DNA of 64,000 bases from Elusimicrobiaceae bacterium. Its GTDB lineage: Bacteria; Elusimicrobiota; Elusimicrobia; Elusimicrobiales; Elusimicrobiaceae. Made by a program: the position numbers and the translations under genes. The notes beneath the pieces were generated by a model. That model saw only the letters and a program-made list of their open reading frames with translations, was not told the DNA's origin and did no database searches. Location: contig JAFXOI010000031.1 of NCBI GenBank assembly GCA_017528825.1, forward strand, positions 26,033 to 90,032. Reading direction: 5' to 3'. Below, piece after piece: positions 17,825 through 47,632 of this stretch. The number at the start of each line of letters is the position of its first letter. The first letter of the stretch is position 1.

Positions 17825-19342
17825 ATGTTTGATAAGCAAGCCTATACCTTGTTTAAATTTGGCAAAAAAATTAATCAATCCGCTCAAAACAAACGAGAAC
17901 TACTCGATTGCGCCTTGCCTGCCTTGCGGGAATTATTCCGCTTGGACCGCGTATACTTTTTTGACTGGCAGCAAGAGCGGGCTCTATTATCTTTGCGCAT
18001 GATGTGCAAAAAAGAATATTGCATGGATATGCAGGAAGATATTTCTGTGTTGGGCGAGCCGGAATTTTTGAAAGAGTTGTTGCGCGACGGCATTGCAGAT
18101 TCTACGGATTTGAATTATCCGGCTGTGTATGTACTACTTCGTTGGAAACGTCCTACTATGACGCTGGAAGGAGAAGAAATTAAAAATACGATTAAAACCC
18201 GTTTGGGCGTTTTGCGTTTGGAGCGTTTCCGTAAAACCCGTGTTTTCACCGAAGCAGAAAAGAAACTGATTAAAGGAGTGGCGGCTGAAATTTCACGCAA
18301 TCTCACGCATACGGAAGGGGACCAGGCCAAAAACCAACGCTTAAACATTGCCACGGCACTCAATGATTTGGCCACCGTATTTGCTTCTTCTTTACGTTTA
18401 ACGGACGGACTGGGTCTTATTTTGCAAGGGGTGCAAAAATACTTTCGTTTTGACCGTGTACGTTTGTACCAAACCAATTATGACGGCACCAAAATTAAAT
18501 CTATTTTGGGAGTAGATATTTCCGGACAGGTGGAACGCCAAGAAGGCGAGAGCCTGCCTGCGGAAGAGCGCGCTTTGTTACAGGAAATGTTTGAGGCGGG
18601 CGAATCCTACCGTTTGGTGCACAACGTGGTCTATATTCCTTTGCAAGTACAGCGTAACAAAGTGGGTTTTTTAACCTTTGATAATTTGCTTTCTCGCCGA
18701 CGTATTGACTATTTGGACTTCGTCTCCTTAAAACAATTTTCTACCCAAATTGCCTTGGCCATAGACAATGCAGCCCTGTTTGAACGGGTGCAAGAATTGT
18801 CCAATTATGACGAGCTGACCAAACTGCCGGTGCGGCGTTTCTTTGCGGAAAAATTAAGTGATGAAATGGCTCGTTCCAAGCGGTTTGATTTAATTATGTC
18901 TATCATTGTATTGGATATTGATTTATTTAAGCAAATCAATGATACGTATGGACATCAGATTGGGGACTGGGCACTCAAACAGGTCAGCCAAGTTTTACGT
19001 ACCAGCCTGCGGCAAACCGATGTTCCGTGCCGTTACGGTGGGGACGAAATGGTGATTATGTTGCCGCGCACCAATGGGGACGAGGCCAAAATTATTACCA
19101 AACGCCTGAAAGATAAAATTAACAATATAGCTATTCCCAGCCGCTATACGGACGGCCAACGGGTTACGTTAAGTATTAGTCAAGGGGTTTCTTCTTTTCC
19201 TCAAGACGGACAGACTGCGGAAGAATTGTTTGATAAAGCCGATAAAGCCTTGTACTGGGTGAAGAACGGGCGGCGCGGCACGTTTGCAATATACCGCGAA
19301 ATAGCGGATGATTTGCCGCAAGCGGAACCGGAAAAGAAGTAA
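17825..19342 (+). CDS. Soluble GAF-GAF-GGDEF diguanylate cyclase
   Basis: YDELTKL, LDIDLFKQINDTYGH, RQTD I-site and RYGGDEM, ADKALY. GAF-like segments (FDRVRLY, QIALAIDNA). No TM. Confidence 0.9.
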   Translation: MFDKQAYTLFKFGKKINQSAQNKRELLDCALPALRELFRLDRVYFFDWQQERALLSLRMMCKKEYCMDMQEDISVLGEPEFLKELLRDGIADSTDLNYPAVYVLLRWKRPTMTLEGEEIKNTIKTRLGVLRLERFRKTRVFTEAEKKLIKGVAAEISRNLTHTEGDQAKNQRLNIATALNDLATVFASSLRLTDGLGLILQGVQKYFRFDRVRLYQTNYDGTKIKSILGVDISGQVERQEGESLPAEERALLQEMFEAGESYRLVHNVVYIPLQVQRNKVGFLTFDNLLSRRRIDYLDFVSLKQFSTQIALAIDNAALFERVQELSNYDELTKLPVRRFFAEKLSDEMARSKRFDLIMSIIVLDIDLFKQINDTYGHQIGDWALKQVSQVLRTSLRQTDVPCRYGGDEMVIMLPRTNGDEAKIITKRLKDKINNIAIPSRYTDGQRVTLSISQGVSSFPQDGQTAEELFDKADKALYWVKNGRRGTFAIYREIADDLPQAEPEKK

Positions 19343-19470
19343 ATAGTTGTCATTTCCGAAGGCAGAAATCGGGGATGAGGGTGTTTTGTACAGGGAGTTT
19401 CGTACGCGCACACGCGAAAAAAATTTGACAAGCAAAGAAAAAGTTGTAAAAATGTATATGATATAGTCCG

Positions 19471-19499
19471 CACACTTTGATATAATGTATCAAGGTGTG
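19471..19499 (+). promoter_or_regulatory. Extended -10 promoter centred in a 12-bp inverted repeat
   Basis: CACACTTTGATA-taatg-TATCAAGGTGTG (one mismatch). TGaTATAAT at 19478-86. A TTGACA also lies at 19425-30. Confidence 0.65.
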
Positions 19500-19570
19500 G
19501 TTGTCTGTACGCAGACGCGCGTAAGTAGTGCGCAAGGTCATCCTGAAAGATGATGGGTCAGGATTTCCAC
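19497..19570 (+). ncRNA. Candidate structured 5' leader (multi-hairpin junction)
   Basis: GTGG/CCAC encloses GTCTG-TACG-CAGAC, GCGCGT-AAGTA-GTGCGC, and TCATC-CTGAAA-GATGA (alternative pairing ATCCTGA/TCAGGAT). Confidence 0.4.
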
Positions 19571-19631
19571 GTTAGAAAATACGGATTTTGTAAATTATAA
19601 GACGGATATATAAGAGGATTACTTAAACCAT

Positions 19632-22600
19632 ATGACAAAACATTTTTGGAAAACTTTGTGTAGCAAGGCGGCCATTGCGGCAGTCTTGCCGTTGTTGTTT
19701 GTGGTAGTGCCGCAATGTGTGCACGCCCAATCGGCCGAAATTCGTTCTGCCGGTGTATATTATATTGACGGCCTAAGTGACATCAACAGTGTATATTGTA
19801 ACTGGGGTGCCGACAATATTTCCAATGCCGGGCAAGCGGCGTACAAGAGCGGTATCGTGGATGTGGCGGCTCATCAAACTGCTGATCCGTGGGATACCTC
19901 GGCCCTTATTGAGTATGATCAACCTTATCCGGCTCCCAATCAGCCCAACAATTATCCCAACCATTGTTTGGCGTTATGCTTTGATGTGTATTGTACCAAT
20001 AAACCCAACGGCGCTACAACTTACTCTATTTCTTTCCCGTTGCAAACCATTCAATTTGAAATTGCCAAATACAATAATTCCAAAGATATCGGTTCTTCCG
20101 AAACTAACCCGGCTGTGCGCACCATTATGGAAAGTATTATTGACAATAATATTTTGGTGGGTGGCGCTACGGGGCCTATGCCCGATACGGATTTATCTAA
20201 GTACATGTGTGCCGCCTATTCGTGCGTAGGTTCTGCAGCCACCTTTGGTGCGACTCAAAGTTGTCCTAACCCTCAATACGAATGTATTGAAAAGTCTGCT
20301 CTTTCTTCTAGCGATATGGGGCCGAACTGTCAAAATCCTCCTTCGGACATTATTAAAAAAGTTACTCATTGCTGTCGTTCATTAAATACGACTGCTTCTA
20401 CCTATGACTATCCTGCGATAACTACTAGGGACGCACAAGATAGTTTTGTCCCCGGGAAAAAAGAAACCGGTGGAGTAGAATATATAGAATGTGGAAATAG
20501 TGTATTGGGTTGTAAAGATGATGGAAGCGGTTGTATTAATGGCCGCGAGACTCCTTGTATTCAACGTTCCATGGGTACCGGTAAAGGATACAATGACCCA
20601 ATCCGCTTCTGCACATCTTGGGACGGTTCATATGAAATTTTAGGCGAATTTGGAAAAACCAACGGGCAATTTGGTTTCCGCGCCAATGTGAAAACCAATT
20701 ATCCCGGTGATAACATCGCTGTAGAAGAAATCGCCATTGACGATACCTTCATTTACCCCAGCGATAACCAATATCCTATTCAGGTAGACGTGACCAACGT
20801 GCACACCGTACGCAGTACGGCTACGGTGGTGGGTTCTATTACGTCTGTCATGGCTACACCTTACACGGTAACCTACCGCCTCAGTAAAGATGCGGATGTC
20901 AGTATCCAGGTATTTGATGCTTCTCATGCGGTGCCGTATACGCAGTCTGACTGGAATCCCAGCGCTACCATGGTAGATGCTATTTCTTACAATGATTCCA
21001 CCAACATCCTGCTTACTCAGCCCGTGCGCCACTTAGTGGATTGGCAGCCGCGCTTAGGCGAAGGGATGAAAGGCTCTGATAAAGACGTGATTTTGCAAGA
21101 GTCCGAAAGCTGGGACGGTCGCGATGACTCCGGCCGCTTATTGCCTGCCAATAACTATTTGATTTCTATCCAAGCCAAGACCCAAGACGAATGGCCGGGC
21201 ACGGATTTCTCCCGTGCGGTTACCCGCCAGCTCAGCTTGGATCCGTTAAAACTAACCGATATTGTGGTGCAAGGGCTCAACAAACAGTCTACCGCCTACG
21301 CCCGTGTCAATTATGTTCCGACGGAAGCATCCACGGTGTACTTTGAAGTATATACGCCGGGCACCACCTTTGCCAGTGAATATACGCGCGGCTTTGAACC
21401 GACCGGTTCTCGCCCGGTAATTGCGAATGGTACCGGTTCCTTGGTCTATTCCAATCACCAACAGCGCAATCGCGGGCTGAGCTACCCCGATAAATGGGAT
21501 GGTTTGTGCCATGTGGCAACCGGTTGTGACTTGGCTTATCCGCGCGGAAAGAAACTACCCTTTACCGGAGACGTGTGGAATGGCACAGCAACTCTCTGTA
21601 CGGACCCGATTTCCGCAGGCGGAAACGCAGGTACAGTATCCGGTCAGAATTGTGTGATCACTTCCCAAGAAGGCGCACCGATGCCGGATGGAGACTATGT
21701 ATATGTACTCTGGGCAGAAGTGCCGTACACGGATCACTATTTTAACGCAGCGGCCTGTTATGGACCGGGTACCCCGCAGTCTGCCGGATGTACCGGAACG
21801 ATTAACTGCAGCGGTAACAACGGTGCCTATACTTGTACTACCACCGTACGCGGAACCACTAATACCTGTTCTACAGCCGGTACCGCGGGTAGCAATGCTG
21901 CAGCTTGTACCGGTGCCTTTACCGGTGTAAAGACCCAACGTTACTATACCGGACACTTGCCTATTGAACGCGGTGTGGTAGATATTACTATTCAACCCGT
22001 TAGCTACGCCACTATCGGTTCCAGCCCGACGGCGTATGGCTTAGATCCGTTTATCTTTAAGTACTCTATTGCCCGTGAAGCTACCGTGAATGCGTATGTC
22101 AAAAATACGGCCGGTGTAAAGGTGAAAACCCTTACCAACGAAGGCGGTAACACCAATGTGGCCCAACAGATGAACACATTAACTTGGGACGGACGCGATG
22201 ATAATGGGCGTATGGTCAGTGCCGGCACCTATATGTTTGTGGTGGAAACCTCGGACCCCATGTTCCCGCAAAGTGTCAAAACCCAAGCGGCTTCTATCTT
22301 CCCGGTGGACTTGTATAGAGTTACGAATGTCTCTACAACGGATGTCTATGGAGACAGCGCGGCTAAAGCAACCATAAGTTATATGCTTTCTAAGGCCATG
22401 AATGTACAGATCAACATATATAATAAGGATGTAGTGGTACCTGTACAAAACACGACAGCCGGTGCACAACAGATTACGCAGGAAACAACCACGGCCAATG
22501 TGCTGGGGTTGCCTGAACTGCCGGGCTTGACCAGTACGGCGGTTCCTGCTACGGTTATCGGCGCAACTTTAGTGGCAGGGGACAGCGTAGGCTCTACCTA

Positions 22601-24608
22601 CTATGTATATACGACCCCGGTGGTAACAGGTAGTACCTATTATTATTACCGTGCTTTGAAATATGTTTCCGCAGTTACTGCCACTACTGAAAACTATGAA
22701 GTTCAGGAAGTGGTGCGCGTGGACGGGACTACTGCCCCGTGGCCGCCGCGCGTCTGCGACAGACAAACCGATGCGGCTTACTTTACAGGCGGATATGTAG
22801 ATCCGACCAAGTTCCCGCAGTGTATTTATGTCAATGACACCAACTTTACCAATTATCCGGCTAACCCCAAAGCAGCCGAGTATAACTATACCGAAGGCGC
22901 CCGCCAAACCTTGGATGTGCGCTTACAGCCGGTAAAAACTTTCAACCGCTCTGCCTTGAAGGCCGGAGACGGCGTAGTGAATATGGAAGAATGGGATGCT
23001 CAATACTTCTATAACCCGACGCCGGTATCTGTGGCCGATGGCGGCAAAAATACATTAGCTGCGGTACAAGCGTGTAAAAATCAAACCGATATTACCAAAT
23101 GTCCGTATGAAATGATTCCGGACGGTACTTATCCGTTGTATATTGCGGCTCGTACCCAAGAGCCGGTGGACGTCTATTACAACCAAACAACAGCCATTCC
23201 GTTCCGCACCGCGGCTGAGGTACTCCCGCAAACCGGTCTGTATGCTACAGATAAACCGGTATACCGGATTAATATCTCTCGTGGGCCGGTGTACTTTATT
23301 GACGGCACGGTGGCGGTGTATCCCAATGCTCCGCAGTTGTACAACGTGTCTTCCGGTCCTATTTTCGTGCCGCCGTATGAGATTAACTTCTCTATTTCCC
23401 GTGCGGCTACGGTGGAAGTAGCTGTGGTGGCCTTGCAAGACGGTTTGTGCACCACCACACGCGATACAGGGTCCTCTTACTCGCGCTTGCCCTACAACAA
23501 TAAGGCAGGGGATGTGTGTAAATTCTTAAGCACCATGACTATTCCCAATACCGCTAACTTTGACCCAAACATTGTTCGTAAGCTGTATTGGGACGGTACC
23601 GATAATAACGGCAAGTATGTCAAGAACGGTAACTATGAAATCCGCTTGACGGCCAAAAACTATCCGGATGAAGGATTGTATCAGCCCACGGTCAAACAGC
23701 TGACCTTGAACGTAGATTTGCTCAAGGTGTATGACTTGCCGGAATCGGAAGCCTACTCTATTAATAAGCGTGGTATAGACATGAAAGTGTCTTACCAGAT
23801 TTCCGTGCCGATGAAAGTGGCCATCCAGATCTTTAAGCCGGGTACCACCATTTACGACTATACAAAAGGTACCTTGCGTGACCCGTCCACCGGACAGGAA
23901 GTAACCGATATCCGCGATGTGCTGGTCAGATCCATTGTGGGTATCCGCCCATCTACCACCTTGATTGAAGAGGTGTGGGATGGTACGGACTATGCCCAAC
24001 AGGGTGTGCCGGACGGTACCTATCCGTTACGCTTTGTAACGGCGTTGAATGGCGCAGATATTGACTCTGTTACCGGAGAAGTGTTGGCCGGTAGCGATGC
24101 GGCCGGTTCCACCGATTATAAGATAAATTACGTGGCTGATACGTATCAGTACGTGAACTTGCATCATGCTACAGTGGCTATCGGTGACGGGGAGTTCGTC
24201 TGCGAAGACTGGGAGAAAACGGTATTCTTCTATCCCAACCCGTTCAAAACAGCCACCGGTACATTAGAAATTACTAAGTTACCAGTGCCCGGTAAAATGT
24301 CTATTAAGATGTATAACTTGGCCGGTGACTTGGTGCGCGAAGGCGGATACACTTGTGTGGATGCTCAAAATATGTCTGTGACAATGGGTAGCTCTCTACA
24401 AGTCAGTCCGGATAATAATGTCAGCAGTACCACTTATACGGGTGGTATGCCGTCCCTGCGTAATGCGGCCCTGCGCTGCTTCTGGGACAAAACCAACGAC
24501 CATGGTAAACGTGTGGCCCGCGGGGTATACTTCGGACTAGTGGATTTCCGTGCTCAAAACGGCAGACAACACTGCCAAAAGGTAGTGAAGATTTTAATTC
24601 CGAGATAA
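19632..24608 (+). CDS. 1658-aa secreted protein with repeated FlgD-like Ig modules, Cys-rich inserts and T9SS-type-A-like C-terminal domain
   Basis: Signal peptide ending AQS. Repeated WDG motifs (e.g. WDGRDDSGRLLPANNY, WDGRDDNGRMVSAGTY, WDGTDNNGKYVKNGNY). C-terminus FYPNPF...MYNLAGDLVR...ARGVYFGLV...KVVKILIPR. Confidence 0.75.
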   Translation: MTKHFWKTLCSKAAIAAVLPLLFVVVPQCVHAQSAEIRSAGVYYIDGLSDINSVYCNWGADNISNAGQAAYKSGIVDVAAHQTADPWDTSALIEYDQPYPAPNQPNNYPNHCLALCFDVYCTNKPNGATTYSISFPLQTIQFEIAKYNNSKDIGSSETNPAVRTIMESIIDNNILVGGATGPMPDTDLSKYMCAAYSCVGSAATFGATQSCPNPQYECIEKSALSSSDMGPNCQNPPSDIIKKVTHCCRSLNTTASTYDYPAITTRDAQDSFVPGKKETGGVEYIECGNSVLGCKDDGSGCINGRETPCIQRSMGTGKGYNDPIRFCTSWDGSYEILGEFGKTNGQFGFRANVKTNYPGDNIAVEEIAIDDTFIYPSDNQYPIQVDVTNVHTVRSTATVVGSITSVMATPYTVTYRLSKDADVSIQVFDASHAVPYTQSDWNPSATMVDAISYNDSTNILLTQPVRHLVDWQPRLGEGMKGSDKDVILQESESWDGRDDSGRLLPANNYLISIQAKTQDEWPGTDFSRAVTRQLSLDPLKLTDIVVQGLNKQSTAYARVNYVPTEASTVYFEVYTPGTTFASEYTRGFEPTGSRPVIANGTGSLVYSNHQQRNRGLSYPDKWDGLCHVATGCDLAYPRGKKLPFTGDVWNGTATLCTDPISAGGNAGTVSGQNCVITSQEGAPMPDGDYVYVLWAEVPYTDHYFNAAACYGPGTPQSAGCTGTINCSGNNGAYTCTTTVRGTTNTCSTAGTAGSNAAACTGAFTGVKTQRYYTGHLPIERGVVDITIQPVSYATIGSSPTAYGLDPFIFKYSIAREATVNAYVKNTAGVKVKTLTNEGGNTNVAQQMNTLTWDGRDDNGRMVSAGTYMFVVETSDPMFPQSVKTQAASIFPVDLYRVTNVSTTDVYGDSAAKATISYMLSKAMNVQINIYNKDVVVPVQNTTAGAQQITQETTTANVLGLPELPGLTSTAVPATVIGATLVAGDSVGSTYYVYTTPVVTGSTYYYYRALKYVSAVTATTENYEVQEVVRVDGTTAPWPPRVCDRQTDAAYFTGGYVDPTKFPQCIYVNDTNFTNYPANPKAAEYNYTEGARQTLDVRLQPVKTFNRSALKAGDGVVNMEEWDAQYFYNPTPVSVADGGKNTLAAVQACKNQTDITKCPYEMIPDGTYPLYIAARTQEPVDVYYNQTTAIPFRTAAEVLPQTGLYATDKPVYRINISRGPVYFIDGTVAVYPNAPQLYNVSSGPIFVPPYEINFSISRAATVEVAVVALQDGLCTTTRDTGSSYSRLPYNNKAGDVCKFLSTMTIPNTANFDPNIVRKLYWDGTDNNGKYVKNGNYEIRLTAKNYPDEGLYQPTVKQLTLNVDLLKVYDLPESEAYSINKRGIDMKVSYQISVPMKVAIQIFKPGTTIYDYTKGTLRDPSTGQEVTDIRDVLVRSIVGIRPSTTLIEEVWDGTDYAQQGVPDGTYPLRFVTALNGADIDSVTGEVLAGSDAAGSTDYKINYVADTYQYVNLHHATVAIGDGEFVCEDWEKTVFFYPNPFKTATGTLEITKLPVPGKMSIKMYNLAGDLVREGGYTCVDAQNMSVTMGSSLQVSPDNNVSSTTYTGGMPSLRNAALRCFWDKTNDHGKRVARGVYFGLVDFRAQNGRQHCQKVVKILIPR

Positions 24609-24627: not shown

Positions 24628-25590
24628 ATGAAAAATAAAGTTTTAATTGCTTGTTTTGCTCTCGCCTTGGCAGCTCCGGCTGCTTGGGCTGACTCGTATG
24701 CAGATGCCGGTACTAGTGCTAGCGCATTCTTGAAGATTGATGCGGGATCTCCGCGTGCGCAAGCCTTAGGTAACGCGTATGTGTCTATTGCAGAAGGACC
24801 GGAGGCCTTGTTTTGGAACCCGGCCGGTGCCGCTTCCGCTACCACGCGGGAGTTAGCTTTTGCTTATCAAGATTATTTGCAAGGTTATAAGGCACGCACC
24901 TTAGCGTATTTGCAACCTATGGGCAAAACGATTATCGGTGTAACATTCAACTACATGGATATGGACGGCTTTGATTACCGCGATGAATACGGTTATCAAC
25001 AACCTACTGTAGGTAAACCGGTACAGAACTTTGTGGGTAGTTTGTCATTGGCCCGCGGATTTTTCAACCAAGGATTACAACTGGGCGCTACCGCTAAGTA
25101 CATCAATGAAAAATTGGATACCTACCGCTACACCAACGTCGGTTTTGATGTGGGGGCTAAAGGGCGTCCGTGGCATTGGTTAGGTTTAGGTGGTGCCATT
25201 ATTAACATCGGTGACAAAAAAGAAATGCCGCGCGGTTGGCGTGTGGGTGCCGATATTGATACGAAGTATTGGACCATTTCCGGTGAATATATGAAATACC
25301 GCGACGATCAGGGCCGCTACGGGGTTGGTTTAGAAGTACATATTCCGGAAGATTTATTGCAAGTGGCTCGGTTTGATTTGCGCGTAGGTTATTACGATCG
25401 TGAAAGCACCGGTTACAGCGAAAGCAAAAATTTGAAGAGTTTAGGACTTGATAGTACCTCTAAAGTTTCCTTCGGGTTTGGTATTTATAGCTCTGAATTA
25501 TTTGGCTATGGTGCCAGCATTGATTACGCAGTTACCCCGTTTGGGGCTTTAGGTACTTCGCAACAAATTGCGGTATCGGTGCAATTTTAG
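24628..25590 (+). CDS. PorV/PorQ-family (FadL-like) outer-membrane beta-barrel
   Basis: Signal peptide, AFLKIDAGSPRAQALGNAY and ALFWNPAG plug motif, alternating beta-strands, terminal Phe (AVSVQF). Confidence 0.8.
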   Translation: MKNKVLIACFALALAAPAAWADSYADAGTSASAFLKIDAGSPRAQALGNAYVSIAEGPEALFWNPAGAASATTRELAFAYQDYLQGYKARTLAYLQPMGKTIIGVTFNYMDMDGFDYRDEYGYQQPTVGKPVQNFVGSLSLARGFFNQGLQLGATAKYINEKLDTYRYTNVGFDVGAKGRPWHWLGLGGAIINIGDKKEMPRGWRVGADIDTKYWTISGEYMKYRDDQGRYGVGLEVHIPEDLLQVARFDLRVGYYDRESTGYSESKNLKSLGLDSTSKVSFGFGIYSSELFGYGASIDYAVTPFGALGTSQQIAVSVQF

Positions 25591-25639
25591 TATCGCATAG
25601 GAAGCGGTGCTTGAGTTGTTGCGACGGAAGGTGTACAAT

Positions 25640-25834
25640 ATGAATACGATGCACAAAGTAAAAAGCCTGGTCGTAAACAAAAAAGGGCAAACGGCTGTGG
25701 AATATATTATTACAGCTTTTTCGCTTTTTGGGGCTTTCTTAGCGTTTTATGCTTTGTATTCTAATATGGTTCCGCAACAGTTCGACCAAGGAGCCAAAGT
25801 CATTTTGTCAGTATATGACACAAGTAGTAATTAA
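25640..25834 (+). CDS. Flp/TadE-like pilin
   Basis: KKG|QTAVEY followed by a hydrophobic helix. ATG 25640 follows ggaagg; ORF track starts at 25607. Confidence 0.8.
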   Translation: MNTMHKVKSLVVNKKGQTAVEYIITAFSLFGAFLAFYALYSNMVPQQFDQGAKVILSVYDTSSN

Positions 25835-25857
25835 TTTGTTAAATTAGGGAGGAATCC

Positions 25858-26079
25858 ATGAAGTTTATTATCGCCATGCAAAATAAGTTGAATGCTGCCA
25901 AAGCGGCTGCCATCAACAGCTTAAAAAAACAAGAAGGCCAGAACACCATCGAATACATCATTATGTTAGGTGTAGTAGTAGGTATTGCCCTGCTCGTTGG
26001 TACGTTGGTTAAAAACATGATGCCGGAAGTCTTTGAGAACATCAAAGCCAAAATTTTGGGCGGCGTCAACCAAGACTAG
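25858..26079 (+). CDS. flp: Flp (type IVc) pilin, probable major subunit
   Basis: KKQEG|QNTIEYIIMLGVVVGIALLVG, short mature part (about 46 aa), strong SD agggagg. Confidence 0.88.
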   Translation: MKFIIAMQNKLNAAKAAAINSLKKQEGQNTIEYIIMLGVVVGIALLVGTLVKNMMPEVFENIKAKILGGVNQD

Positions 26080-26096: not shown

Positions 26097-26585
26097 ATGA
26101 CAATTTTTCATAGGAGGCATGAGGGGCAGGTAACGGTAGAATTGATGCTCATTCTGCCGGTGCTAATGTTGATGATATTCTTTATCCTAGAATATGGCAA
26201 CATTGCCTATCATACCATTATTGCTAACCATGCTTCCTATGAATTTGCCCGAATCGGCGCTTTAACAGGGGCTAAAAAGCCTAGCGGTAAAGCCAGTACC
26301 GGGCCGATGGTAACAAAGATTAACGCGGCCAAGCAAAAGGTGTTTGGCGCGGATGCATCCCGCATTTCGGTGAAAGTTAAATTGCAAAACACCGGTGTGG
26401 ACCCGATGTATAAAAAACATCGGCATGAAGATGTAATCGTAACGGTGGTATATCCGGTGCGGTTAGCGTTTCCGGGGACTAGTTGGTTACTCGCCAGCGA
26501 GCCGAAACGCAACGGTGTACGCAAAATAGAAGCTACTACGCGTATGCCGGTAGAAAAATTATATGCCGGCTCGGATCCTAAGTGA
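26097..26585 (+). CDS. tadE: TadE/TadF-like pseudopilin
   Basis: HEG|QVTVELMLILPVLMLMIFFILEYG, ASYEFARIGA, V.VTV.YPV. Confidence 0.85.
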   Translation: MTIFHRRHEGQVTVELMLILPVLMLMIFFILEYGNIAYHTIIANHASYEFARIGALTGAKKPSGKASTGPMVTKINAAKQKVFGADASRISVKVKLQNTGVDPMYKKHRHEDVIVTVVYPVRLAFPGTSWLLASEPKRNGVRKIEATTRMPVEKLYAGSDPK

Positions 26586-26644
26586 TCTGTGGTAGAATTT
26601 GTTTAAATTATAATAAGAATTGGAATAACAAGTAAGGAGAAACA

Positions 26645-27397
26645 ATGAAAAAAGGAATTATGCTTCCGTTGCTGTTAGCATTCTTAGCAGCTTTGGTTTA
26701 TTGGATGATTGTACACAATGCTGAAAAAAAATTGAATGCTTCTAAGACAGTCAAAACTGTTTTGGTGCCTGTGCGCGATATTAAAGAGCGCGAAGTAATT
26801 AAGCGTGACTACTTGAAACGCATTCAAGTGCCTGCTGCCTATGTGCAAAAAGACGCTTTTACTTATACAACCGATGCAGATTTTGCCAAAATAGACAATG
26901 CCATTGCACGGATTCAAATCCCGAAAGGAAACCAGATTTCCAAATATGCCGTTACCTCGCTTTCTCCCGAGGCCGGTTTGTCCAGTAAAATTCCGGTTCA
27001 GATGAGAGGTTTTGTCATGGTGGTCGATAGCAACGTAGCTAGCATGATTAAACCCGACGATAACGTGGACATCTTGCTCACGTTTGAGGCCCTGATGAAA
27101 ACAGGGGCTCGGCAGAAAGTAACCGTAACGCTACTTCAGAACGTAAAAGTGTTAGGTGTAGGTTCTGACTTGGGACAAGGATTGGATGCCAAAGCGGCCG
27201 CCGCCTTGCGTAACCAAGAGGAAGACGCTTCCGCGTATACAGATACGAGCGCGTTGAGCTTGGCTCTGTCTCCGCGTGATGCACAATACTTAGCCTTGGC
27301 TAAGGAAGAAGGAACGTTATCCGTCATCTTACGTTCTCACGGAGATGTGACGAACTACTTGATGGAAATTGCCACCTTTGAGAAATTATTTTCATAA
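26645..27397 (+). CDS. cpaB: Flp pilus assembly protein CpaB/RcpC
   Basis: N-terminal TM, SAF domain (VLVPVRDIKERE), IKPDDNVDIL, LLQNVKVLGVG, LALSPRDAQYLALA. Confidence 0.9.
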   Translation: MKKGIMLPLLLAFLAALVYWMIVHNAEKKLNASKTVKTVLVPVRDIKEREVIKRDYLKRIQVPAAYVQKDAFTYTTDADFAKIDNAIARIQIPKGNQISKYAVTSLSPEAGLSSKIPVQMRGFVMVVDSNVASMIKPDDNVDILLTFEALMKTGARQKVTVTLLQNVKVLGVGSDLGQGLDAKAAAALRNQEEDASAYTDTSALSLALSPRDAQYLALAKEEGTLSVILRSHGDVTNYLMEIATFEKLFS

Positions 27398-27415
27398 ACA
27401 GGAATAATATAAACT

Positions 27416-28150
27416 ATGAAATTTACTTCTAAACTGACTTTATGGATATTGCTACTGGTGTTAGCTTGCCCTGCCGCATTTGCTAAGAAAACGCATTTGG
27501 TGGCTGTAAGTGCCGACGTGGTAGAAATCGGCGGTACGATGACTTCGGCCAAAGGGTTTGAATGGAACCAAATCTTTGACTTTGAAGAAGCCAACATCCC
27601 GGGTATTTTATCTTTGGGTGAATTTGCCCGTAAGACAGCGGTCATTACCCGTTTACGTTTATCCGAAACGGAAGGGCGGGCGCAGATTTTGTCCAACCCG
27701 AAAATTGTGACCAGTTCCGGTAACAGCGCCAAAATTACGGTAGGTGGTAAAGTGCCTATACCGGTGGTAAATAACCAAGGGGTAGGTTCCCAGTTGGAAG
27801 AATATGGTATCTTGCTAAACGTATTACCTACCATTATTCCGGAAAGAGGGAATATTATTGACTTGCAGGTACAGTTGTCTGTATCTTCAGTAGACTATTC
27901 TCGTACGGTATCCGTCGGTACCGCTACGGCTCCTTCTTTCACCAACCGTGACGTGGAAACCCATGTGGAACTCAATAGCGGGGAAACCTTGGTGATTGGC
28001 GGTTTGAAGAGCAGCTACCGCAACGTTAGTGAAACCCGCGTGCCATTTCTGGGACGCCTTCCGTTAATCGGTTTGTTGTTTAAGTATAAAGACGTAACGG
28101 AAGAACAACGCTCTCTATTCTTGTTTATTACCGTGGAAGTGGTGGAATAA
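27416..28150 (+). CDS. cpaC: Minimal secretin (CpaC/RcpA-like, secretin domain only)
   Basis: Signal peptide followed directly by GRAQILSNPKI...GGKVPIP...YGILLNVLP...LNSGETLVIGGL...VPFLGRLPLIGLLF. Confidence 0.88.
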   Translation: MKFTSKLTLWILLLVLACPAAFAKKTHLVAVSADVVEIGGTMTSAKGFEWNQIFDFEEANIPGILSLGEFARKTAVITRLRLSETEGRAQILSNPKIVTSSGNSAKITVGGKVPIPVVNNQGVGSQLEEYGILLNVLPTIIPERGNIIDLQVQLSVSSVDYSRTVSVGTATAPSFTNRDVETHVELNSGETLVIGGLKSSYRNVSETRVPFLGRLPLIGLLFKYKDVTEEQRSLFLFITVEVVE

Positions 28151-28155
28151 TAATT

Positions 28156-30450
28156 ATGGCAGAAGAACAATTAGAAAACCCGAAAAGCGAAGCAAAAATT
28201 ATCGCATTAAGCTCTCCCAAAGAAGGCGCAGGGAAAACAACCCTGACGCTCAATTTGGCGCTTGGTTGGGCCGGTATTCAAAAGAGACCGGTGTTAATTG
28301 TTCCTCTCGATCCTTTAGCCCGTCAAGAGCATAGCTTTTATTTGGATATTAAAAAGCCGGTCAGCGTGGCTGATATTTTGCGCACGCTCGGCAATGCCAA
28401 CATCGCCGTAGTGGGCGGGTTGTTACGCGGTAAAATTTCCATGTCTCAATGGGGGGTGGGGGTGTTGCCTTTGGGAAATACGCGTGCCCAAATTGCCTCT
28501 ATCAGTCCTAAAATTTTAATTCCCATTCTGTCACGCTTATCGCAAACGTTTGATATTTTCTTGGATGTGGATTCTTCTTTCCCGATGCAGGCGTTTGCTT
28601 TTGATATTGCAGATAAGATTTTTTGGGTGTCCAATGCTACACGTACGCATCTGAACTCCACCGTGCAGTTGTTTAATGATTACAAAGAACAGCGCTATCC
28701 TATGGAACGGGTAAGTGTCATTTGTAACCAGTACGACATGCCGGGATCTATCCCTTACGAAGAAGTGGAAAAGTTTTATAACTCCTTAGGCCGCGGTATT
28801 GATGTATTTTTACCTTGGGATGAGGGGATTATGACCACTTCCAATCAGAAAGGGGTGGAAATTATTTCAAATCCGCAGTCTGAGTGGATTAAGGGCTTGC
28901 GTTTAGTATTGGCTAAAATCCGTGATTTAACGCCCGCACCTAAAGATTGGCACGCTTCTGTATCAGATGAAGAATTTACGCAAGCAGCCAAAGAAATTTG
29001 GGCTCCCATTATGGCAGGCGGAGTGGGAGTTGGAGCTGGGCCGGAAAGCCATATTGCAGTGGAAGAAGAAGGAGAAGCCGGCAAAACGAAACTATCTTTC
29101 TGGGATGATTTGAAACAAAAAATCCACAAAGAAGTAGTCCGCACGCTGGAAGTGGAACGTATTGTGATTAGTGATGAAAGTTCCGCCAGTGCACAAACCC
29201 GCAAACGGGTGGCGGCTATTGTGGACGACATTTTGCAAAAGCAGCCCAATTTGCAGTTCTCCCGCGATCAACGTACTCGCTTTGCTTCTGAATTGTTAGA
29301 TGAAATTTTGGGGTTAGGGCCCTTGGAAACCTTGATGCGCGATGCCAGCGTTACCGAAATCATGGTCAACGCCTTTGACAAGATTTTTATCGAGCAAAAA
29401 GGTAAGTTGACCTTAACCAAATACAAATTTAGAAATAACGAACAAGTGGTGCAGGTAATCAAGCGTATTGTATCTCCGTTAGGACGTCGTATTGACGAAT
29501 CCGTACCACTCGTAGACGCCCGTTTGAAAGACGGTTCCCGTGTCAACGCTATTATTGCGCCGTTGGCGGTGTCCGGACCTACCTTGACGATTCGTCGTTT
29601 CTCGCAAAAACCTTTCGGACCGGAAGATTATTTCCGCTTTGGTACGATTAGTCCGGAATGTATGGAATTTTTACAGAAATGCGTAAAAATTCGTAAAAAC
29701 ATTATTGTGTGCGGTGGTACCGGTACCGGTAAAACTACATTCTTGAACGCGCTTTCCGGTTATATTGCCAATGATGAACGTATCATTACGGTAGAAGATA
29801 CGGCCGAGCTTCGTTTGCAACAGCCACACTGGGTATCGTTGGAAAGCCGTCCGCCCAACGTGGAAGGAAAAGGTGCTATTACCATTCAAGATTTAGTTAA
29901 GAACTGCTTGCGTATGCGTCCGGACCGTATTGTAGTAGGGGAGTGCCGCGGTGCAGAAGCACTGGACATGTTACAGGCCATGAACACCGGTCACGAAGGT
30001 TCTCTGACCACTATTCACGCCAATACCCCGCGTGACGGACTATCTCGTTTGGAAGCCATGTGTATGCAGGCCAGCGGAGATTTACCCATTTTTGCTATTC
30101 GCGAAATGATTTCGTCAGCCGTAAATATGATTGTACAGCTGTCTCGTTTTTCGGACGGCTCCAGAAAGGTAACCTACATCACGGAAATGCACGGACAAAA
30201 AGACGGGATGATTCAATCTACCGACTTGTTCCGCTATGTGCAGACCGGAGTAGATGAGAATGGTAAAGTGCAGGGGATGTTCGCCCCGACAGGCAATTTG
30301 CCTACTTTCTACAATGATTTTAAGGCAAAAGGGGTACCGGTGCCGGAAGATGTGTTCTTGAAAGGGGCTATTAAGTTTGACGAAGATGATAACCCCATCT
30401 TGCCGCAATCCGAACAAACCCCACCGCCACCGCCGGGAGTACACGGATAA
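28156..30450 (+). CDS. cpaF: CpaE/TadZ (ParA-like) fused to CpaF/TadA assembly ATPase
   Basis: N-terminal [10 protein letters not shown]-terminal [41 protein letters not shown]. Confidence 0.92.
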
Positions 30451-42481: not shown

Positions 42482-42578
42482 ATAGTAGAAATAGATGTAT
42501 CAGTAAACTCTGTGTTTGAGCGCGGGACATCCCCGCGGGTCAGCAAGAGTGAATTTTTATATTATGGCGAGGTGGAAT

Positions 42579-44216: not shown

Positions 44217-44244
44217 TTAATTTTATTTGTAAGGAGCGTAAATT

Positions 44245-45681
44245 ATGAAAATCATAAATTGGATTAAAAATCGCAGCGGTAAATTCGCTCTTTCTACAGC
44301 GCAAGCTATAGGGACGGCCGCAGTGGTAGGCGTGGCAGGTATCGCCGCGTGGCAAATGTTGTCTTCTTCGGGTCCTAATCAGGATACGGCATTTTCCTCT
44401 CAAGACCCGGACGTAGTCTATGTGGCCGGCGGGGCCGGTGGCTCCTACAGCGGCGTTGGATATGGCGAAGGCGGAGAATTGCAAAGCCATATTAATGTAT
44501 CCAAATCCTCCAGCCAACGGCTCATGGAAAGAGATTTTGAACAGGAAAAATTGCGTGGACAAAACCCATCTTCCAGCCAAATGGAGCGGGATGAACAAGC
44601 CATTTCTGCCCATAAAATGAACGGGGCTAGCGAAGGCTTAGGCGTGGGTGTCGGCGCACAAGAAATGGGTAGCGGCACAATGGAAGGCGGAAACAGCCAA
44701 GTGCAAGATCAAATTGCCGCTATTAGTGCCCTGGCTAACCAAAAGAAAGAAGAAGCTGAAGCGGCAGCTGCAGCGGCCGGTGCGGAAGGCGGAGATGTAG
44801 TAGCGGCAGCCGCTAAAGCAGCCGGTTTGAATAAAAGCGGTGGCAAATATGACATGGCTTCCGGCATAGCCCGTAGCGGTAACAGTTATAGCACGAACGC
44901 TTTTGGCGGTTCCACCAGAATAGCCGAAAAAGGCGGGCGCATTAGCCCTAGCGCTGAAACCGATCGTTTAGCTATGGGAAGATCCGGCCAAATGCAAGGT
45001 CCCAATAATGCCAATTTTGGCGGTTATCATGGTAAAGTAGGCAATGACTTGGGCTCTATGGCCAAATATGCCTCTGATGCAAGAAGCAAAAAAATGGCCG
45101 TGAACCAAATGGCTTCTGATCTATATATGTCCGGTGCACAACAAAGCGGCGGTATTAAAGTAGCCAACGATGGCAGTCTAGGATTAGGCGGTGGTGAATC
45201 ATTGGATCTTTTGGACGATGCCGTGCGTGCGCTGGGTATTACAGGCGAAGGTATAGGTGGGGAAACTTATGGACAGGCAAAGCAACGATTGCTTGACGGT
45301 ATATATGACTTACGTACAAAACTAGCGGGTTTAGCTTCTATTCCGTTGATTGGGCCGCTTTTTGCACTCATTCCCTATTTAAATTATCTGAAACAGGTAA
45401 AAGAGTTTAAAGAGAGTTGGGGGGCTAGTGTGATGGAAACTGAAAATACGCAAGGCTCTTTGGCAGATCATCTCAAAAACTGTGCTGACCAAATGTATGG
45501 GTTATCGTGGATGAGTACTGCAATGAGTGTGTTTGGTGTAGTGGGGTTTGTAGCTGGTTTGGAAGGGTCTGTAGTCGGCGTAATAGGTAGTTACAATGCA
45601 TACGCAGCTCAATATTGGCCCGAAGCTGCCGAAGAAGAGGGAGAGGAGAATCCGGATCCGACCAAAGAGAAGAATAAATAA
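44245..45681 (+). CDS. Gly/Ala/Ser-rich protein with prepilin-like leader and hydrophobic C-terminus (array protein B)
   Basis: MKIINWIKNRSG + hydrophobic segment. C-terminal LAGLASIPLIGPLFALIPYL and MSTAMSVFGVVGFVAGL. SD aaggag. Confidence 0.75.
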   Translation: MKIINWIKNRSGKFALSTAQAIGTAAVVGVAGIAAWQMLSSSGPNQDTAFSSQDPDVVYVAGGAGGSYSGVGYGEGGELQSHINVSKSSSQRLMERDFEQEKLRGQNPSSSQMERDEQAISAHKMNGASEGLGVGVGAQEMGSGTMEGGNSQVQDQIAAISALANQKKEEAEAAAAAAGAEGGDVVAAAAKAAGLNKSGGKYDMASGIARSGNSYSTNAFGGSTRIAEKGGRISPSAETDRLAMGRSGQMQGPNNANFGGYHGKVGNDLGSMAKYASDARSKKMAVNQMASDLYMSGAQQSGGIKVANDGSLGLGGGESLDLLDDAVRALGITGEGIGGETYGQAKQRLLDGIYDLRTKLAGLASIPLIGPLFALIPYLNYLKQVKEFKESWGASVMETENTQGSLADHLKNCADQMYGLSWMSTAMSVFGVVGFVAGLEGSVVGVIGSYNAYAAQYWPEAAEEEGEENPDPTKEKNK

Positions 45682-45691
45682 GGAGGAATTT

Positions 45692-47299: not shown

Positions 47300-47311
47300 T
47301 AAGGTCCACTT

Positions 47312-47623: not shown

Positions 47624-47632
47624 GAGTTTAGC

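What the first reader, a model, noticed from the sequence alone, without database searches (positions are those of the whole stretch)
19632..24608. Giant adhesin-like scaffold: about eight FlgD-Ig modules with Cys-rich loop insertions
Seen: W-D-(G/A/K) module cores at FCTSWDG, ESWDGRDD, DKWDGLC, LTWDGRDD, EEWDAQY, LYWDGTD, EVWDGTD and CFWDKTN, most followed by a (D/A/N)G(T/D/N/V)Y strand. Cys/Thr/Gly-rich inserts interrupt several modules (e.g. ACYGPGTPQSAGCTGTINCSGNNGAYTCTTTVRGTTNTC). Inference: a rigid Ig stalk presenting disulfide-knotted variable loops, analogous to an antibody-like adhesin.
Basis: partly seen in the sequence, partly recalled or inferred. Interest (0 to 1): 0.65.

Follow-up and report, generated by a model that had tools for sequence, protein, structure and literature searches.

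The report
Ig-repeat surface protein with hypervariable inserts
A 1658-residue exported protein of a gut Elusimicrobia bacterium is a chain of six FlgD-type Ig modules plus a type-IX-style tail, whose framework barely changes between species while a head segment and loop insertions change fast and recombine; it looks like a variable surface adhesin tied to an adhesion-pilus operon.

Summary
ORF 19632-24608 (+) encodes a 1658-aa protein with a signal peptide, and all eight W-D motifs and the Cys-rich stretch sit where stated (WD[GAK] 8 times; at most 4 in 20,000 shuffles).

Six modules (M2-M7) are FlgD_ig-type. M8 is a type-A-like T9SS C-terminal domain split by an insert. The first "module" (aa 321-399) and the N-terminal head (aa 33-320) show no FlgD_ig signal.

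The family is confined to Elusimicrobia. Environmental members are compact (about 1050 aa). Gut Elusimicrobiaceae carry about 510 extra residues at about 17 loop sites.

Across 65 species the cores keep fixed length, while inserts range from 3 to 236 aa. In 14 independent close pairs, dN/dS is 0.02-0.08 in cores and 0.10-0.53 in inserts, never above 1. Pairs with 97-100% identical cores have heads only 17-50% identical, and head and scaffold trees conflict (AU p 6e-5 and 5e-4), which indicates recombination.

I found no cassette, retroelement or within-strain variation.

The gene is always followed by a PorV/PorQ-like barrel and a Tad pilus operon.

Surface display and adhesion are inferred, not shown.

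The parts
19632..19727 (+). Sec-type signal peptide (aa 1-32, likely cleaved after VHA)
   Evidence: Hydrophobic N-terminus followed by A-x-A-like VHA|QS, read from the sequence. The equivalent ...AFAQTAE is conserved in orthologues. No predictor was run.
19728..20591 (+). N-terminal head (aa 33-320). It has a conserved Cys-bearing framework (aa 81-160) and a hypervariable segment (aa 161-320).
   Evidence: No Pfam hit. Only 92 matches in 1.84 billion representative proteins; those examined were FlgD_ig + CTD proteins of this family, apart from one insect cuticle protein. aa 221-300 are 6-18% identical with 39-69% gaps among 117 orthologues. The segment ranges from 22 to 218 aa and dN/dS reaches 0.53. 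It is 17-50% identical between pairs whose cores are 97-100% identical.
20592..20828 (+). M1c: conserved beta-rich unit with the first W-D-G (aa 321-399). FlgD_ig membership is not shown.
   Evidence: 75-87% identical, with no indels. No Pfam hit and hhalign probability below 1% against every other module. AF2 predicts strands.
20829..21251 (+). M2, a FlgD_ig module (aa 400-540), with a variable C-C' loop insert at aa 434-457 (nt 20931-21002)
   Evidence: FlgD_ig 23.1 bits. hhalign against M4 gives 95.3%, M6 86.5%, M7 87.2%. The insert ranges from 3 to 236 aa with up to 16 Cys in other species, and dN/dS is 0.51.
21252..21971 (+).
   Evidence: Both inserts are absent from 11 compact relatives, whose M3 is the best Pfam FlgD_ig stretch and maps to aa 601-698. 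With inserts excised, M3 against M5 gives hhalign 59-70%. AF2 pLDDT is 74-95 over aa 560-750, with strands inside the insert. Insert lengths range 22-94 and 4-59 aa, and dN/dS is 0.26-0.36.
21972..22313 (+). M4, the canonical insert-free FlgD_ig module (aa 781-894)
   Evidence: FlgD_ig 31.8 bits, profile positions 14-76 of 79, above the 27-bit cut-off. Length 113-116 aa in all 65 species and dN/dS 0.03. A weak sequence match links it to P. aeruginosa FlgD 3OSV.
22314..23279 (+). M5, a FlgD_ig module (aa 895-1216), expanded by inserts at aa 942-1102 (nt 22455-22937) and aa 1123-1193 (nt 22998-23210)
   Evidence: With inserts excised, hhalign against M7 gives 95.9% (E 6e-9) and against M2 94.3%. 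A compact relative's FlgD_ig stretch maps to aa 1121-1175. The insert folds confidently (pLDDT about 72-94) into long beta-hairpins. The aa 941-1040 part ranges from 12 to 191 aa.
23280..23726 (+). M6, a FlgD_ig module (aa 1217-1365), with a small 2-Cys loop at aa 1266-1308
   Evidence: FlgD_ig 24.5 bits. hhalign against M4 gives 95.2%. The two Cys are invariant.
23727..24191 (+). M7, a FlgD_ig module (aa 1366-1520)
   Evidence: FlgD_ig 19.3 bits. hhalign against M2 gives 87%, and against M5 core 95.9%. dN/dS is 0.04.
24192..24608 (+). M8, a C-terminal domain resembling a T9SS type A sorting domain (aa 1521-1658), split by a 30-49-aa insert, with 4 invariant Cys, followed by the stop codon
   Evidence: Por_Secre_tail matches the N half and CHU_C the C half. 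TIGR04183 scores 21.2 bits against a cut-off of 23, and the PorZ C-terminus matches at E 9.7e-8. The compact relative P0407 reaches 23.5 bits, at or above the cut-off. The motifs FFYPNPF, RGVYFGLV and KVVKILIPR are visible in the sequence.
24628..25590 (+). PorV/PorQ-family-like outer-membrane barrel, 19 nt downstream; the proposed docking partner
   Evidence: NF033709 scores 83.7 bits (cut-off 90) at E 1.8e-23 over aa 30-319 against profile 2-325 of 326. PorQ matches at E 3.6e-18. It is present directly downstream in 76 of 76 loci that reach that far, and in distant relatives at 37% identity.
25607..26079 (+). Two Flp-type pilin genes (25607/25640-25834 and 25858-26079)
   Evidence: G-x-x-x-x-EY motifs (KGQTAVEY, EGQNTIEY) are present in the translations. 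The genes are conserved in 75 loci. Flp1_like/Class_IIIsignal hits occur in relatives.
26097..30450 (+). Tad pilus machinery: TadE, RcpC/CpaB, a minimal 244-aa secretin, and a TadZ-CpaF fusion ATPase
   Evidence: Pfam hits for TadE, RcpC, Secretin, and CbiA + T2SSE. The gene order is the same in 72-74 loci.
17825..19342 (+). GAF-GGDEF diguanylate cyclase directly upstream; a possible c-di-GMP input
   Evidence: GGDEF at E 4.7e-44 and GAF_3. It is conserved upstream in 63 loci.

Best explanation
The gene encodes a Sec-exported cell-envelope protein of a gut Elusimicrobiaceae bacterium (Candidatus Avelusimicrobium-like).

Shown:
- It is a linear scaffold made of a head, one conserved beta unit, six FlgD_ig beta-sandwich modules, and a C-terminal domain of the T9SS type A kind.
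- The scaffold is under strong purifying selection and never changes length.
- The head segment aa 161-320 and loops C-C', E-F and F-G of M2, M3 and M5 accept insertions of up to 200 residues or more. These insertions evolve 2-6 times faster in dN/dS, turn over by indels, and for the head are exchanged between lineages by recombination.

Inferred:
- The tail docks non-covalently on the co-transcribed PorV/PorQ-like outer-membrane barrel, as PorZ docks on PorQ and PorU on PorV in Porphyromonas.
- The stalk therefore projects from the cell surface with the variable head and N-terminal inserts outermost.
- It acts together with the Tad/Flp pilus encoded immediately downstream, possibly under c-di-GMP control, as a lineage-specific adhesin or contact surface. 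Its exposed parts would diversify under pressure from host ligands, immunity or phages.

How the protein crosses the outer membrane is unknown.
For: Architecture:
- The whole protein scores FlgD_ig 71.6 bits, with per-module hits in M2, M4, M6 and M7.
- hhalign links M2, M4, M6 and M7 at 68-95% probability, and M5 core at 94-96%.
- FlgD_ig stretches of insert-free relatives map onto M3-M7, and CHU_C maps onto M8.
- AF2 models are all-beta. Foldseek returns Ig/FN3 arrays and weak FlgD hook-cap matches at probability 0.95-0.99.

Inserts:
- About 511 residues at about 17 sites are absent from compact relatives.
- Core lengths are fixed while inserts range 3-236 aa in 65 species.
- dN/dS is 0.02-0.08 in cores and 0.10-0.53 in inserts. 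The ratio is higher in inserts in all 14 independent pairs, with Fisher p from 3e-4 to 1e-30.
- Cores 97-100% identical go with heads 17-50% identical.
- Flanking genes are 92-98% identical in nucleotides, while the head is 62%.
- Head and scaffold trees conflict, with AU p 6.5e-5 and 4.7e-4.

Anchoring and context:
- The C-terminal domain carries CTD motifs and matches the PorZ C-terminus, and the neighbouring gene is PorV/PorQ-like.
- The order giant gene, barrel, flp, tad genes holds in every locus that reaches that far: 76 for the barrel and 72-75 for the flp and tad genes.
- The same order holds in distant environmental Elusimicrobia, including one with a different upstream context.
- The giant protein is the least conserved gene of the locus.
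- Published precedents exist for a CTD protein bound to a barrel: PorQ-PorZ (PMC10947112), and PorP-PG1035 and SprF-SprB (PMC9143113).
- Near-identical metatranscriptome contigs cover the giant gene, the barrel, flp2/tadE and the secretin.
Against: - Surface exposure, CTD-barrel binding, adhesion and a link to the pilus all rest on homology, gene order and evolutionary pattern. None was tested.
- The window protein's CTD and the barrel both score just below the curated NCBIfam cut-offs (21.2 against 23; 83.7 against 90).
- No T9SS translocon is known in this phylum and none is in the window, so no route across the outer membrane is established.
- Regional dN/dS never exceeds 1, so relaxed constraint on loops explains much of the pattern without positive selection.
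- Alignment error in indel-rich inserts inflates both dN and dS.
- AF2 confidence is moderate (mean pLDDT 74.8 and 64.0), and whole-model Foldseek hits are generic.
- RNA contigs can include contaminating DNA.
Confidence: 0.55

Rival explanations
1. The protein and its barrel are structural parts of the Elusimicrobia Tad pilus machine. They might form an outer-membrane or periplasmic assembly that makes up for the very short secretin, or a pilus-associated cap or tip, echoing FlgD's role as a hook-assembly cap. On this reading they are not an independent adhesin.
For: The two genes are always the first genes in front of flp-tadE-rcpC-secretin across gut and environmental Elusimicrobia. This holds even where the upstream context differs. 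The secretin is only 244 aa, with the Secretin domain filling aa 84-244. The FlgD_ig fold is used in a filament-cap scaffold, and weak Foldseek hits to 7eha and 3osv were found.
Against: Machine parts are normally among the most conserved genes of a locus. Here this is the fastest-evolving gene (45-86% identity, against 73-100% for the secretin and the ATPase). It shows lineage-specific insertions of hundreds of residues and recombining heads. Tandem paralogues with different heads on the same scaffold fit a ligand-facing protein better.
Confidence: 0.2
2. It is a non-adhesive surface coat or shield protein (S-layer-like, or a decoy). Its exposed loops simply drift or diversify to evade phages and host immunity, and it has no ligand-binding role.
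For: The architectural and evolutionary evidence is the same as for the best explanation. Foldseek lists S-layer proteins (7ptp, 9g93, 8cka) among many Ig arrays. No recognisable binding or catalytic domain is present.
Against: The conserved operon link with an adhesion pilus and a diguanylate cyclase points to attachment. The Foldseek matches to S-layer proteins are generic, with TM-scores of 0.1 or below. Abundance and lattice formation are unknown.
Confidence: 0.12
3. It is an ordinary type IX secretion cargo. It would be exported and processed by a complete T9SS encoded elsewhere in the genome.
For: It has a C-terminal domain with Por_Secre_tail/CHU_C similarity and a PorV-family neighbour.
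Against: The ORFs scanned with Pfam in the 64-kb window (18 of about 55) include no T9SS core component. The reviews and papers retrieved describe T9SS as confined to Bacteroidota or the FCB group (abstracts). The pair travels with tad genes, not with por or spr genes.
Confidence: 0.08

Closest known systems
PorZ-PorQ and PorU-PorV sub-complexes of the Porphyromonas gingivalis T9SS attachment complex (PMC10947112, PMC5562754, PMC8545088)
   Same: A surface protein with a retained type-A-like C-terminal Ig-like domain is paired with a PorV/PorQ-family 300-400-aa outer-membrane barrel. The window protein's tail matches the PorZ C-terminus and its neighbour matches PorQ and PorV_fam.
   Different: The phylum is different (Elusimicrobia). 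No T9SS core genes are nearby. The pair heads a Tad pilus operon. The client is a 1050-1900-aa FlgD_ig rod with variable inserts, not a beta-propeller protein or a sortase. Both HMM scores fall just under the curated cut-offs.
SprB-SprF and PG1035-PorP (type B CTD protein encoded next to its own PorP-like barrel; PMC9143113)
   Same: The logic is one cargo with one adjacent dedicated barrel, and the cargo is a very large repetitive surface adhesin.
   Different: Those are type B CTDs with PorP/SprF barrels and depend on the T9SS. Here the CTD is type-A-like and the barrel is PorV/PorQ-like.
FlgD hook-cap Ig-like domain (Pfam PF13860; PDB 3OSV, 7EHA)
   Same: It has the same domain family and the same W-D-G-x(9)-G-x-Y motif. 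Foldseek finds weak matches.
   Different: FlgD has one such domain and acts inside a flagellar export pathway. This protein has six in tandem plus a sorting tail, and it has a Sec signal peptide. JGI's name 'flagellar hook assembly protein FlgD' for relatives is a misannotation.
Bacterial Ig-repeat adhesins with variable tips (invasin/intimin, SiiE, Leptospira Lsa66 and Lig proteins)
   Same: It is a rod of tandem Ig-like domains carrying a distal variable part. SiiE is among the Foldseek hits. The FlgD_ig region of Lsa66 matches at E 6.5e-11.
   Different: It has no Big_1/2/3, invasin or RTX domains. The anchoring device is different. Variability is spread over loop insertions within modules as well as the tip.
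Tad/Flp (type IVc) pilus loci of Aggregatibacter, Caulobacter and Pseudomonas
   Same: The downstream genes flp, tadE, rcpC/cpaB, secretin, tadZ/cpaE-cpaF, tadB and tadC are the canonical set.
   Different: From my own knowledge, described tad loci do not begin with a giant Ig-repeat CTD protein and a PorV-like barrel. I found no paper describing this combination.

Membership tests
FlgD_ig domain family (Pfam PF13860) | The whole-protein score reaches the gathering threshold of 27 bits | tested here: met
   71.6 bits, E 5.6e-20, with 2 stretches passing
FlgD_ig domain family (Pfam PF13860) | Each of the eight claimed modules is individually recognisable as FlgD_ig | tested here: not met
   M4 scores 31.8 bits. 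M2 (23.1), M6 (24.5) and M7 (19.3) fall below the cut-off on their own. M1, M3 and M5 give no hit, and M8 hits Por_Secre_tail/CHU_C instead. M3 and M5 are rescued by orthology to Pfam-positive modules of compact relatives and by hhalign after the inserts are excised. M1c and the head are never rescued.
FlgD_ig domain family (Pfam PF13860) | A beta-sandwich fold superposable on FlgD | tested here: inconclusive
   AF2 predicts all-beta modules. Foldseek against 7eha and 3osv gives probability 0.95-0.99 but E 0.03-0.19 and TM (target) 0.32-0.47, using a multi-domain query.
T9SS type A C-terminal sorting domain (TIGR04183 / PF18962) | The HMM score reaches the curated cut-off, at the extreme C-terminus | tested here: inconclusive
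   For the window protein, TIGR04183 scores 21.2 against 23 and PF18962 scores 18 against 27, because an insert of about 35 aa splits the domain. The insert-free relative P0407 scores 23.5, at or above 23. Among the compact relatives, CHU_C scores 22-47 bits, with the best stretch at the C-terminus in most.
T9SS type A C-terminal sorting domain (TIGR04183 / PF18962) | The genome encodes the T9SS translocon and motor (SprA/Sov, PorK/L/M/N) and the sortase PorU | not testable with these tools
None of these was found among the window ORFs scanned.
T9SS type A C-terminal sorting domain (TIGR04183 / PF18962) | The CTD is cleaved and the cargo is linked to anionic LPS | not testable with these tools
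   This needs biochemistry.
PorV/PorQ family outer-membrane barrel (NCBIfam NF033709), for the neighbour at 24628-25590 | The score reaches the family cut-off of 90 bits over the full length | tested here: inconclusive
   83.7 bits at E 1.8e-23, aligned over aa 30-319 against profile 2-325 of 326. PorQ scores 65.7 bits and PorV 20.9 bits. A profile search against PDB sequences finds no PorV or PorQ chain.
Tad/Flp pilus operon (genomic membership of the gene) | Conserved co-linear placement, same strand and short gaps, with the flp, tadE, rcpC, secretin and ATPase genes | tested here: met
   The order is the same in every locus whose contig reaches that far (72-76 of 80), and in four distant Elusimicrobia loci. 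The gap to the barrel gene is 19 nt, and the only terminator-like match in the stretch from the giant gene's end to flp1 lies inside the barrel gene (24832-24853).
Actively diversified variable proteins (DGR targets, cassette or gene-conversion antigenic variation) | A template repeat, silent cassettes or a reverse transcriptase nearby, and variant alleles within one strain | tested here: not met
   The gene has no DNA repeat of 20 nt or more elsewhere in the 64-kb window, beyond two 20-nt chance matches within the gene itself. Contigs from two further studies differ at only 2 of 6301 positions, neither in an insert. Assembled contigs can hide rare variants.
Classical bacterial Ig-like adhesins (Big_1/2/3, invasin/intimin, RTX adhesins) | Big-type domains and the matching anchor or secretion signal | tested here: not met
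   No such Pfam family at E <= 0.01. The structural hits are generic.

The most novel reading that the evidence does not exclude
The tail and its PorV-like barrel form a self-contained surface-display device that works without a type IX secretion machine and is functionally wired to the Tad pilus. In gut Elusimicrobiaceae its client protein has become a natural loop-display scaffold. An invariant Ig rod would carry folded, often disulfide-rich insert domains and a swappable head, which are gained, lost and exchanged by recombination between lineages to retarget binding or escape immunity and phages.
Probability: 0.25. Interest if true: 0.75.

Novelty: new variant of a known kind. Interest (0 to 1): 0.55.

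Why it matters
Elusimicrobiaceae are widespread in the guts of ruminants, birds, horses, mice and people, yet almost nothing is known about how they attach there.

This protein is the fastest-evolving gene of a locus kept intact in more than 70 species. It combines an invariant Ig framework with recombining, insertion-tolerant loops, which makes it a prime candidate for the host- or partner-specific contact surface of these bacteria.

It also extends the 'sorting tail plus PorV-type barrel' pairing to a phylum where type IX secretion is not described, and ties that pairing to a Tad pilus.

The fixed insertion sites in a FlgD_ig sandwich form a natural map of loops that tolerate grafts of up to 200 residues or more. 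That map could guide protein-scaffold engineering.

Tried and rejected
- Catalytic or known binding domain in the head. Pfam and NCBIfam give nothing. The conserved 'NHC' is not kept in compact relatives, which have PNSC, so a catalytic His-Cys reading is dropped.
- Sequence search of the family profile against PDB. The only hit is a marginal FlgD match (E 0.26).
- Profile of the barrel against PDB. There is no PorV, PorQ or FadL hit.
- Whole-model Foldseek against PDB and BFVD. It returns only generic Ig/FN3/MG arrays at TM of 0.2 or below, and gives no information on the head.
- DGR or cassette mechanism. No repeats were found, and the allele is identical across studies.
- Riboswitch in the 289-nt leader. 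There is no Rfam match with E < 0.4. Promoter and terminator scans are at chance level.
- Homologues of the barrel. The best 120 listed are all Elusimicrobiaceae orthologues, which says nothing about distant pairs.
- Head data against the clade L037+L038+L076. The clade is not rejected (p 0.38), so the recombination evidence rests on the L048/L052/L053/L054 group and on the identity decoupling.
- Literature. I found no paper describing this protein family or the operon layout.
Full report
**1. What is at the coordinates**

ORF 19632-24608 (+) is open and gives a 1658-aa protein (P0001). It begins with a hydrophobic Sec-type leader ending in VHA|QS. This was read from the sequence; no predictor was run.

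They are far beyond chance. Nine of 18 Trp are followed by Asp (expected 1.14, P = 4.7e-7), and WD[GAK] occurs 8 times against a maximum of 4 in 20,000 shuffles.

The spacing from WDx to the next G-x-Y/F strand is 9 residues in five units and 11 in the first. It is 61 in M3 and 40 in M5, so those two modules are visibly interrupted.

The 38 Cys are unevenly placed:
- 16 in the head
- 10 in M3
- 4 in M5
- 2 in M6
- 4 in M8
- none in M2, M4 or M7
- the remaining 2 in the signal peptide

**2. How many modules are FlgD-Ig**

The whole protein scores 71.6 bits on Pfam FlgD_ig (cut-off 27) and also hits CHU_C. When the protein is cut into pieces:
- M4 is a full hit at 31.8 bits.
- M2 (23.1), M6 (24.5) and M7 (19.3) are partial hits.
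- M8 hits Por_Secre_tail in its N half and CHU_C in its C half.
- The head, M1, M3 and M5 hit nothing.

I built profiles of each module from 117 orthologues and compared them with hhalign. M2, M4, M6 and M7 are mutually related at 68-95% probability. I then excised the inserts, choosing them from the gap and conservation profile and the AF2 strands. M5 then matches M7 at 95.9% (E 6e-9) and M2 at 94.3%, and M3 matches M5 at 59-70%.

There is independent support from relatives that never had the inserts. In those proteins the best Pfam FlgD_ig stretches map onto M3 (aa 601-698), M4, M5 (aa 1121-1175), M6 and M7 of the window protein, and CHU_C maps onto M8.

M1c (aa 321-399) and the head match no module, at under 1% probability.

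So there are six FlgD_ig modules, one T9SS-type tail of related fold, one conserved beta unit of unknown kind, and a head.

**3. Structure**

AF2 on the two halves, with 68-sequence alignments, gives mean pLDDT 74.8 and 64.0 and pTM 0.51 and 0.39. Nearly everything is beta.

M3 is modelled with pLDDT 74-95, including both Cys-rich inserts, and there are strands inside the quoted stretch. The M5 insert of about 100-150 aa forms long hairpins at pLDDT about 72-94. The inserts therefore look like folded sub-domains, not floppy linkers.

Foldseek of whole halves returns generic Ig/FN3/MG arrays: SpyCEP and ScpA, alpha-2-macroglobulin and C3, SiiE, GbpA, and S-layers. For the C half it also returns weak FlgD hook-cap matches (7eha and 3osv, probability 0.95-0.99, E 0.03-0.19) and PorU. 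The viral library adds nothing.

**4. Who has it**

The protein has hundreds of orthologues. The 120 best listed are 51-86% identical and 1175-1818 aa long. The named ones are Elusimicrobiaceae or Candidatus Avelusimicrobium. A scan of species-representative genomes found 76 loci, all Elusimicrobiales apart from three obviously mis-binned contigs.

The head (aa 34-399) matches only 92 of 1.84 billion representative proteins. Eight were examined: seven are FlgD_ig proteins of this family, six of them with a CTD hit, and one (P0326) is an insect cuticle protein, a chance match.

Environmental Elusimicrobia from groundwater and sediment MAGs carry compact versions of 1030-1100 aa. NCBI labels them 'hypothetical protein' and JGI wrongly labels them 'flagellar hook assembly protein FlgD'.

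I aligned the window protein with 11 compact members. It is 35-37% identical over about 1045 positions and has about 511 extra residues at about 17 discrete sites. The main ones are aa 166-307, 434-457, 625-676, 699-764, 942-1102 and 1123-1193. The quoted Cys-rich stretch is thus a real, lineage-specific insertion into the F-G loop region of M3.

**5.

Yes.

*Conservation among 117 orthologues.* Core blocks are 70-93% identical to the window protein with no gaps. By contrast, aa 221-300, 441-460 and 721-760 are 6-18% identical with 39-74% gaps.

*Length across 65 species.* Using full-length genes extracted from the loci, cores have invariant length. Examples are M2_rest at 78/78/78, M3_ABC at 40/40/40 and M5_ABC at 46/46/46 (minimum/median/maximum). 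Inserts vary widely:
- M2 insert: 3-236 aa, with up to 16 Cys
- head segments: 16-193, 35-218 and 22-160 aa
- M3 inserts: 22-94 and 4-59 aa
- M5 insert: 12-191 aa

*dN/dS.* Nei-Gojobori estimates were summed over 14 phylogenetically independent close pairs. Cores give omega 0.02-0.08. Inserts give 0.10-0.53, with the highest values in head aa 221-300 (0.53), the M2 insert (0.51) and the M3 Cys insert (0.36). Every single pair shows omega higher in inserts by 2.3-5.9 fold, with Fisher p from 3e-4 to 1e-30.

No region exceeds 1, so positive selection is not demonstrated. Alignment error in indel-rich segments inflates both dN and dS.

**6. Variation on a short time-scale and recombination**

Several comparisons point the same way.

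- The closest full-length relative (L001) has flanking genes 92-98% identical in nucleotides. The head region 20094-20673 is only 62% identical. Synonymous divergence falls from about 0.5-0.8 at the 5' end to 0.03-0.3 at the 3' end.
- Pairs whose cores are 97-100% identical have head segments only 17-50% identical. Examples are L048/L052 (core 98.7% against head 50%), L037/L076 (98.8% against 38%) and L005/L006 (95% against 17%, with lengths of 117 and 251 aa).
- Such pairs also show isolated block replacements. One is a 20-aa two-Cys loop present or absent in otherwise identical sequence. Another is an M3 Cys insert of 62 against 35 aa.
- Different inserts differ in different pairs, mostly in the N-terminal half. 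The M6-M8 inserts are stable.
- Head and scaffold trees conflict. The scaffold clade L048+L052 (support 100/99) is rejected by the head data (AU p 6.5e-5). The head clade L052+L053+L054 (support 90/91) is rejected by the scaffold data (p 4.7e-4). These groups were chosen after I had seen the identity table, so the p-values are somewhat optimistic. A second candidate case was not significant.
- A metagenomic relative has two tandem paralogues, of 1498 and 1115 aa, each aligning to the window scaffold from M1c to the tail, but with about 550 against about 175 residues ahead of M1c.

**7. It is not an active diversity generator**

The gene has no repeat of 20 nt or more elsewhere in the window. 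Contigs from two further studies carry the same allele, with 2 differences in 6301 nt and none in an insert.

The variation is therefore allelic between lineages, not somatic or phase-like. One caveat is that assembled contigs drop rare variants.

**8. Genomic setting and likely mode of action**

Nineteen nucleotides downstream lies a 320-aa protein that aligns over its full length to NCBIfam PorV/PorQ family (83.7 bits, cut-off 90, E 1.8e-23) and to PorQ (E 3.6e-18). The giant protein's tail matches the C-terminus of PorZ (E 9.7e-8).

After the barrel come two Flp pilin genes, then TadE, RcpC, a 244-aa secretin and a TadZ-CpaF fusion. A GAF-GGDEF cyclase lies upstream.

This order is found in every locus whose contig reaches far enough, which is 72-76 of 80 loci. 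It is also found in distant environmental Elusimicrobia, where the barrel is 37% identical, and in one genome whose upstream context is unrelated.

The giant protein is the least conserved gene of the locus.

Bovine gut metatranscriptome contigs with 0-2 mismatches cover the giant gene, the barrel, flp2/tadE and the secretin. This is weak evidence of expression.

In Porphyromonas and Flavobacterium, proteins keeping a CTD are held on the cell surface by PorV-, PorQ- or PorP-type barrels (PMC10947112, PMC9143113, PMC5562754).

By analogy, I infer that the tail docks on the adjacent barrel, and that the rod projects outward with its variable head and N-terminal inserts distal. I also infer that it works with the Tad pilus in attachment. 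None of these steps is shown.

The route across the outer membrane is unknown. None of the window ORFs I scanned with Pfam is a T9SS core component.

**9. Comparison with what is known, and verdict**

The closest mechanistic analogues are PorZ-PorQ and PorU-PorV, and the cargo-next-to-its-barrel layout of SprB-SprF. The domain family is FlgD_ig. The overall design resembles Ig-rod adhesins with variable tips.

It differs in four ways:
- the phylum;
- the operon partner, which is a Tad pilus;
- the lack of a nearby T9SS;
- the way variability is delivered, by folded insertions grafted into fixed loops of the Ig modules plus a recombining head.

I found no publication describing the family.

Earlier AI notes of this scan report the same tail, barrel and Tad trio in other Elusimicrobia genomes. 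They agree with what I found independently, but they are not independent evidence.

What this report adds is the module census, the insertion map, the quantitative contrast between cores and inserts, and the evidence for head recombination.

I rate it a new variant of a known kind, of moderate to good interest.

Noticed in passing
window 27416-28150: The Tad secretin is only 244 aa, and the Pfam Secretin domain covers aa 84-244. That leaves no room for the usual periplasmic N-domains.
   Followed up: partly
window 28156-30450: A single 764-aa ORF joins a ParA/MinD-like (CbiA, TadZ/CpaE-type) N-terminal domain to a T2SSE (CpaF/TadA) ATPase. In environmental relatives (L082, L084) the ATPase gene is only 469-547 aa, so the fusion may be specific to the gut lineage.
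   Followed up: partly
L082 6513-9912; L083 6404-9867; L084 6870-9991: In these three environmental Elusimicrobia loci two extra genes sit between the GGDEF gene (or the unrelated upstream context) and the giant gene. One is a 441-484-aa protein that matches PorV_fam weakly in L082 only (28 bits) and not in L084. The other is a 548-581-aa coiled-coil protein. Both are absent from the gut lineage.
   Followed up: partly
L081 1051-8958: This locus has tandem paralogues of the giant protein (1498 and 1115 aa), each aligning to the window scaffold from M1c to the tail but with about 550 against about 175 residues ahead of M1c. P0342/P0344 and P0345/P0350 also look like paralogue pairs on one contig.
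   Followed up: partly
L010, L025, L037 (genome contigs): Contigs carrying this Elusimicrobiaceae locus are filed under Eggerthellaceae, Duodenibacillus and Muribaculaceae bins. This is most likely binning contamination in public MAGs.
   Followed up: no
P0273, P0361, P0364, P0372 and others: JGI annotates members of this family as 'flagellar hook assembly protein FlgD'. That is a domain-level misannotation of proteins of 1000 aa or more that carry a signal peptide.
   Followed up: no
window 19343-19631: The 289-nt leader ahead of the giant gene has no Rfam match (best E 0.41). It has two sigma-70-like sites (19425-19453 and 19458-19486) and a 13-bp hairpin at 19471-19499. Another reader flagged a possible regulatory RNA here.
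   Followed up: partly
window 42516-53271: Four large ORFs (566, 478, 567 and 487 aa) and a 1335-aa ORF have no Pfam hit at all.
   Followed up: no
Near-identical RNA contigs occur in bovine gut metatranscriptomes. The organism therefore appears to be a recurrent livestock-gut resident.
   Followed up: partly
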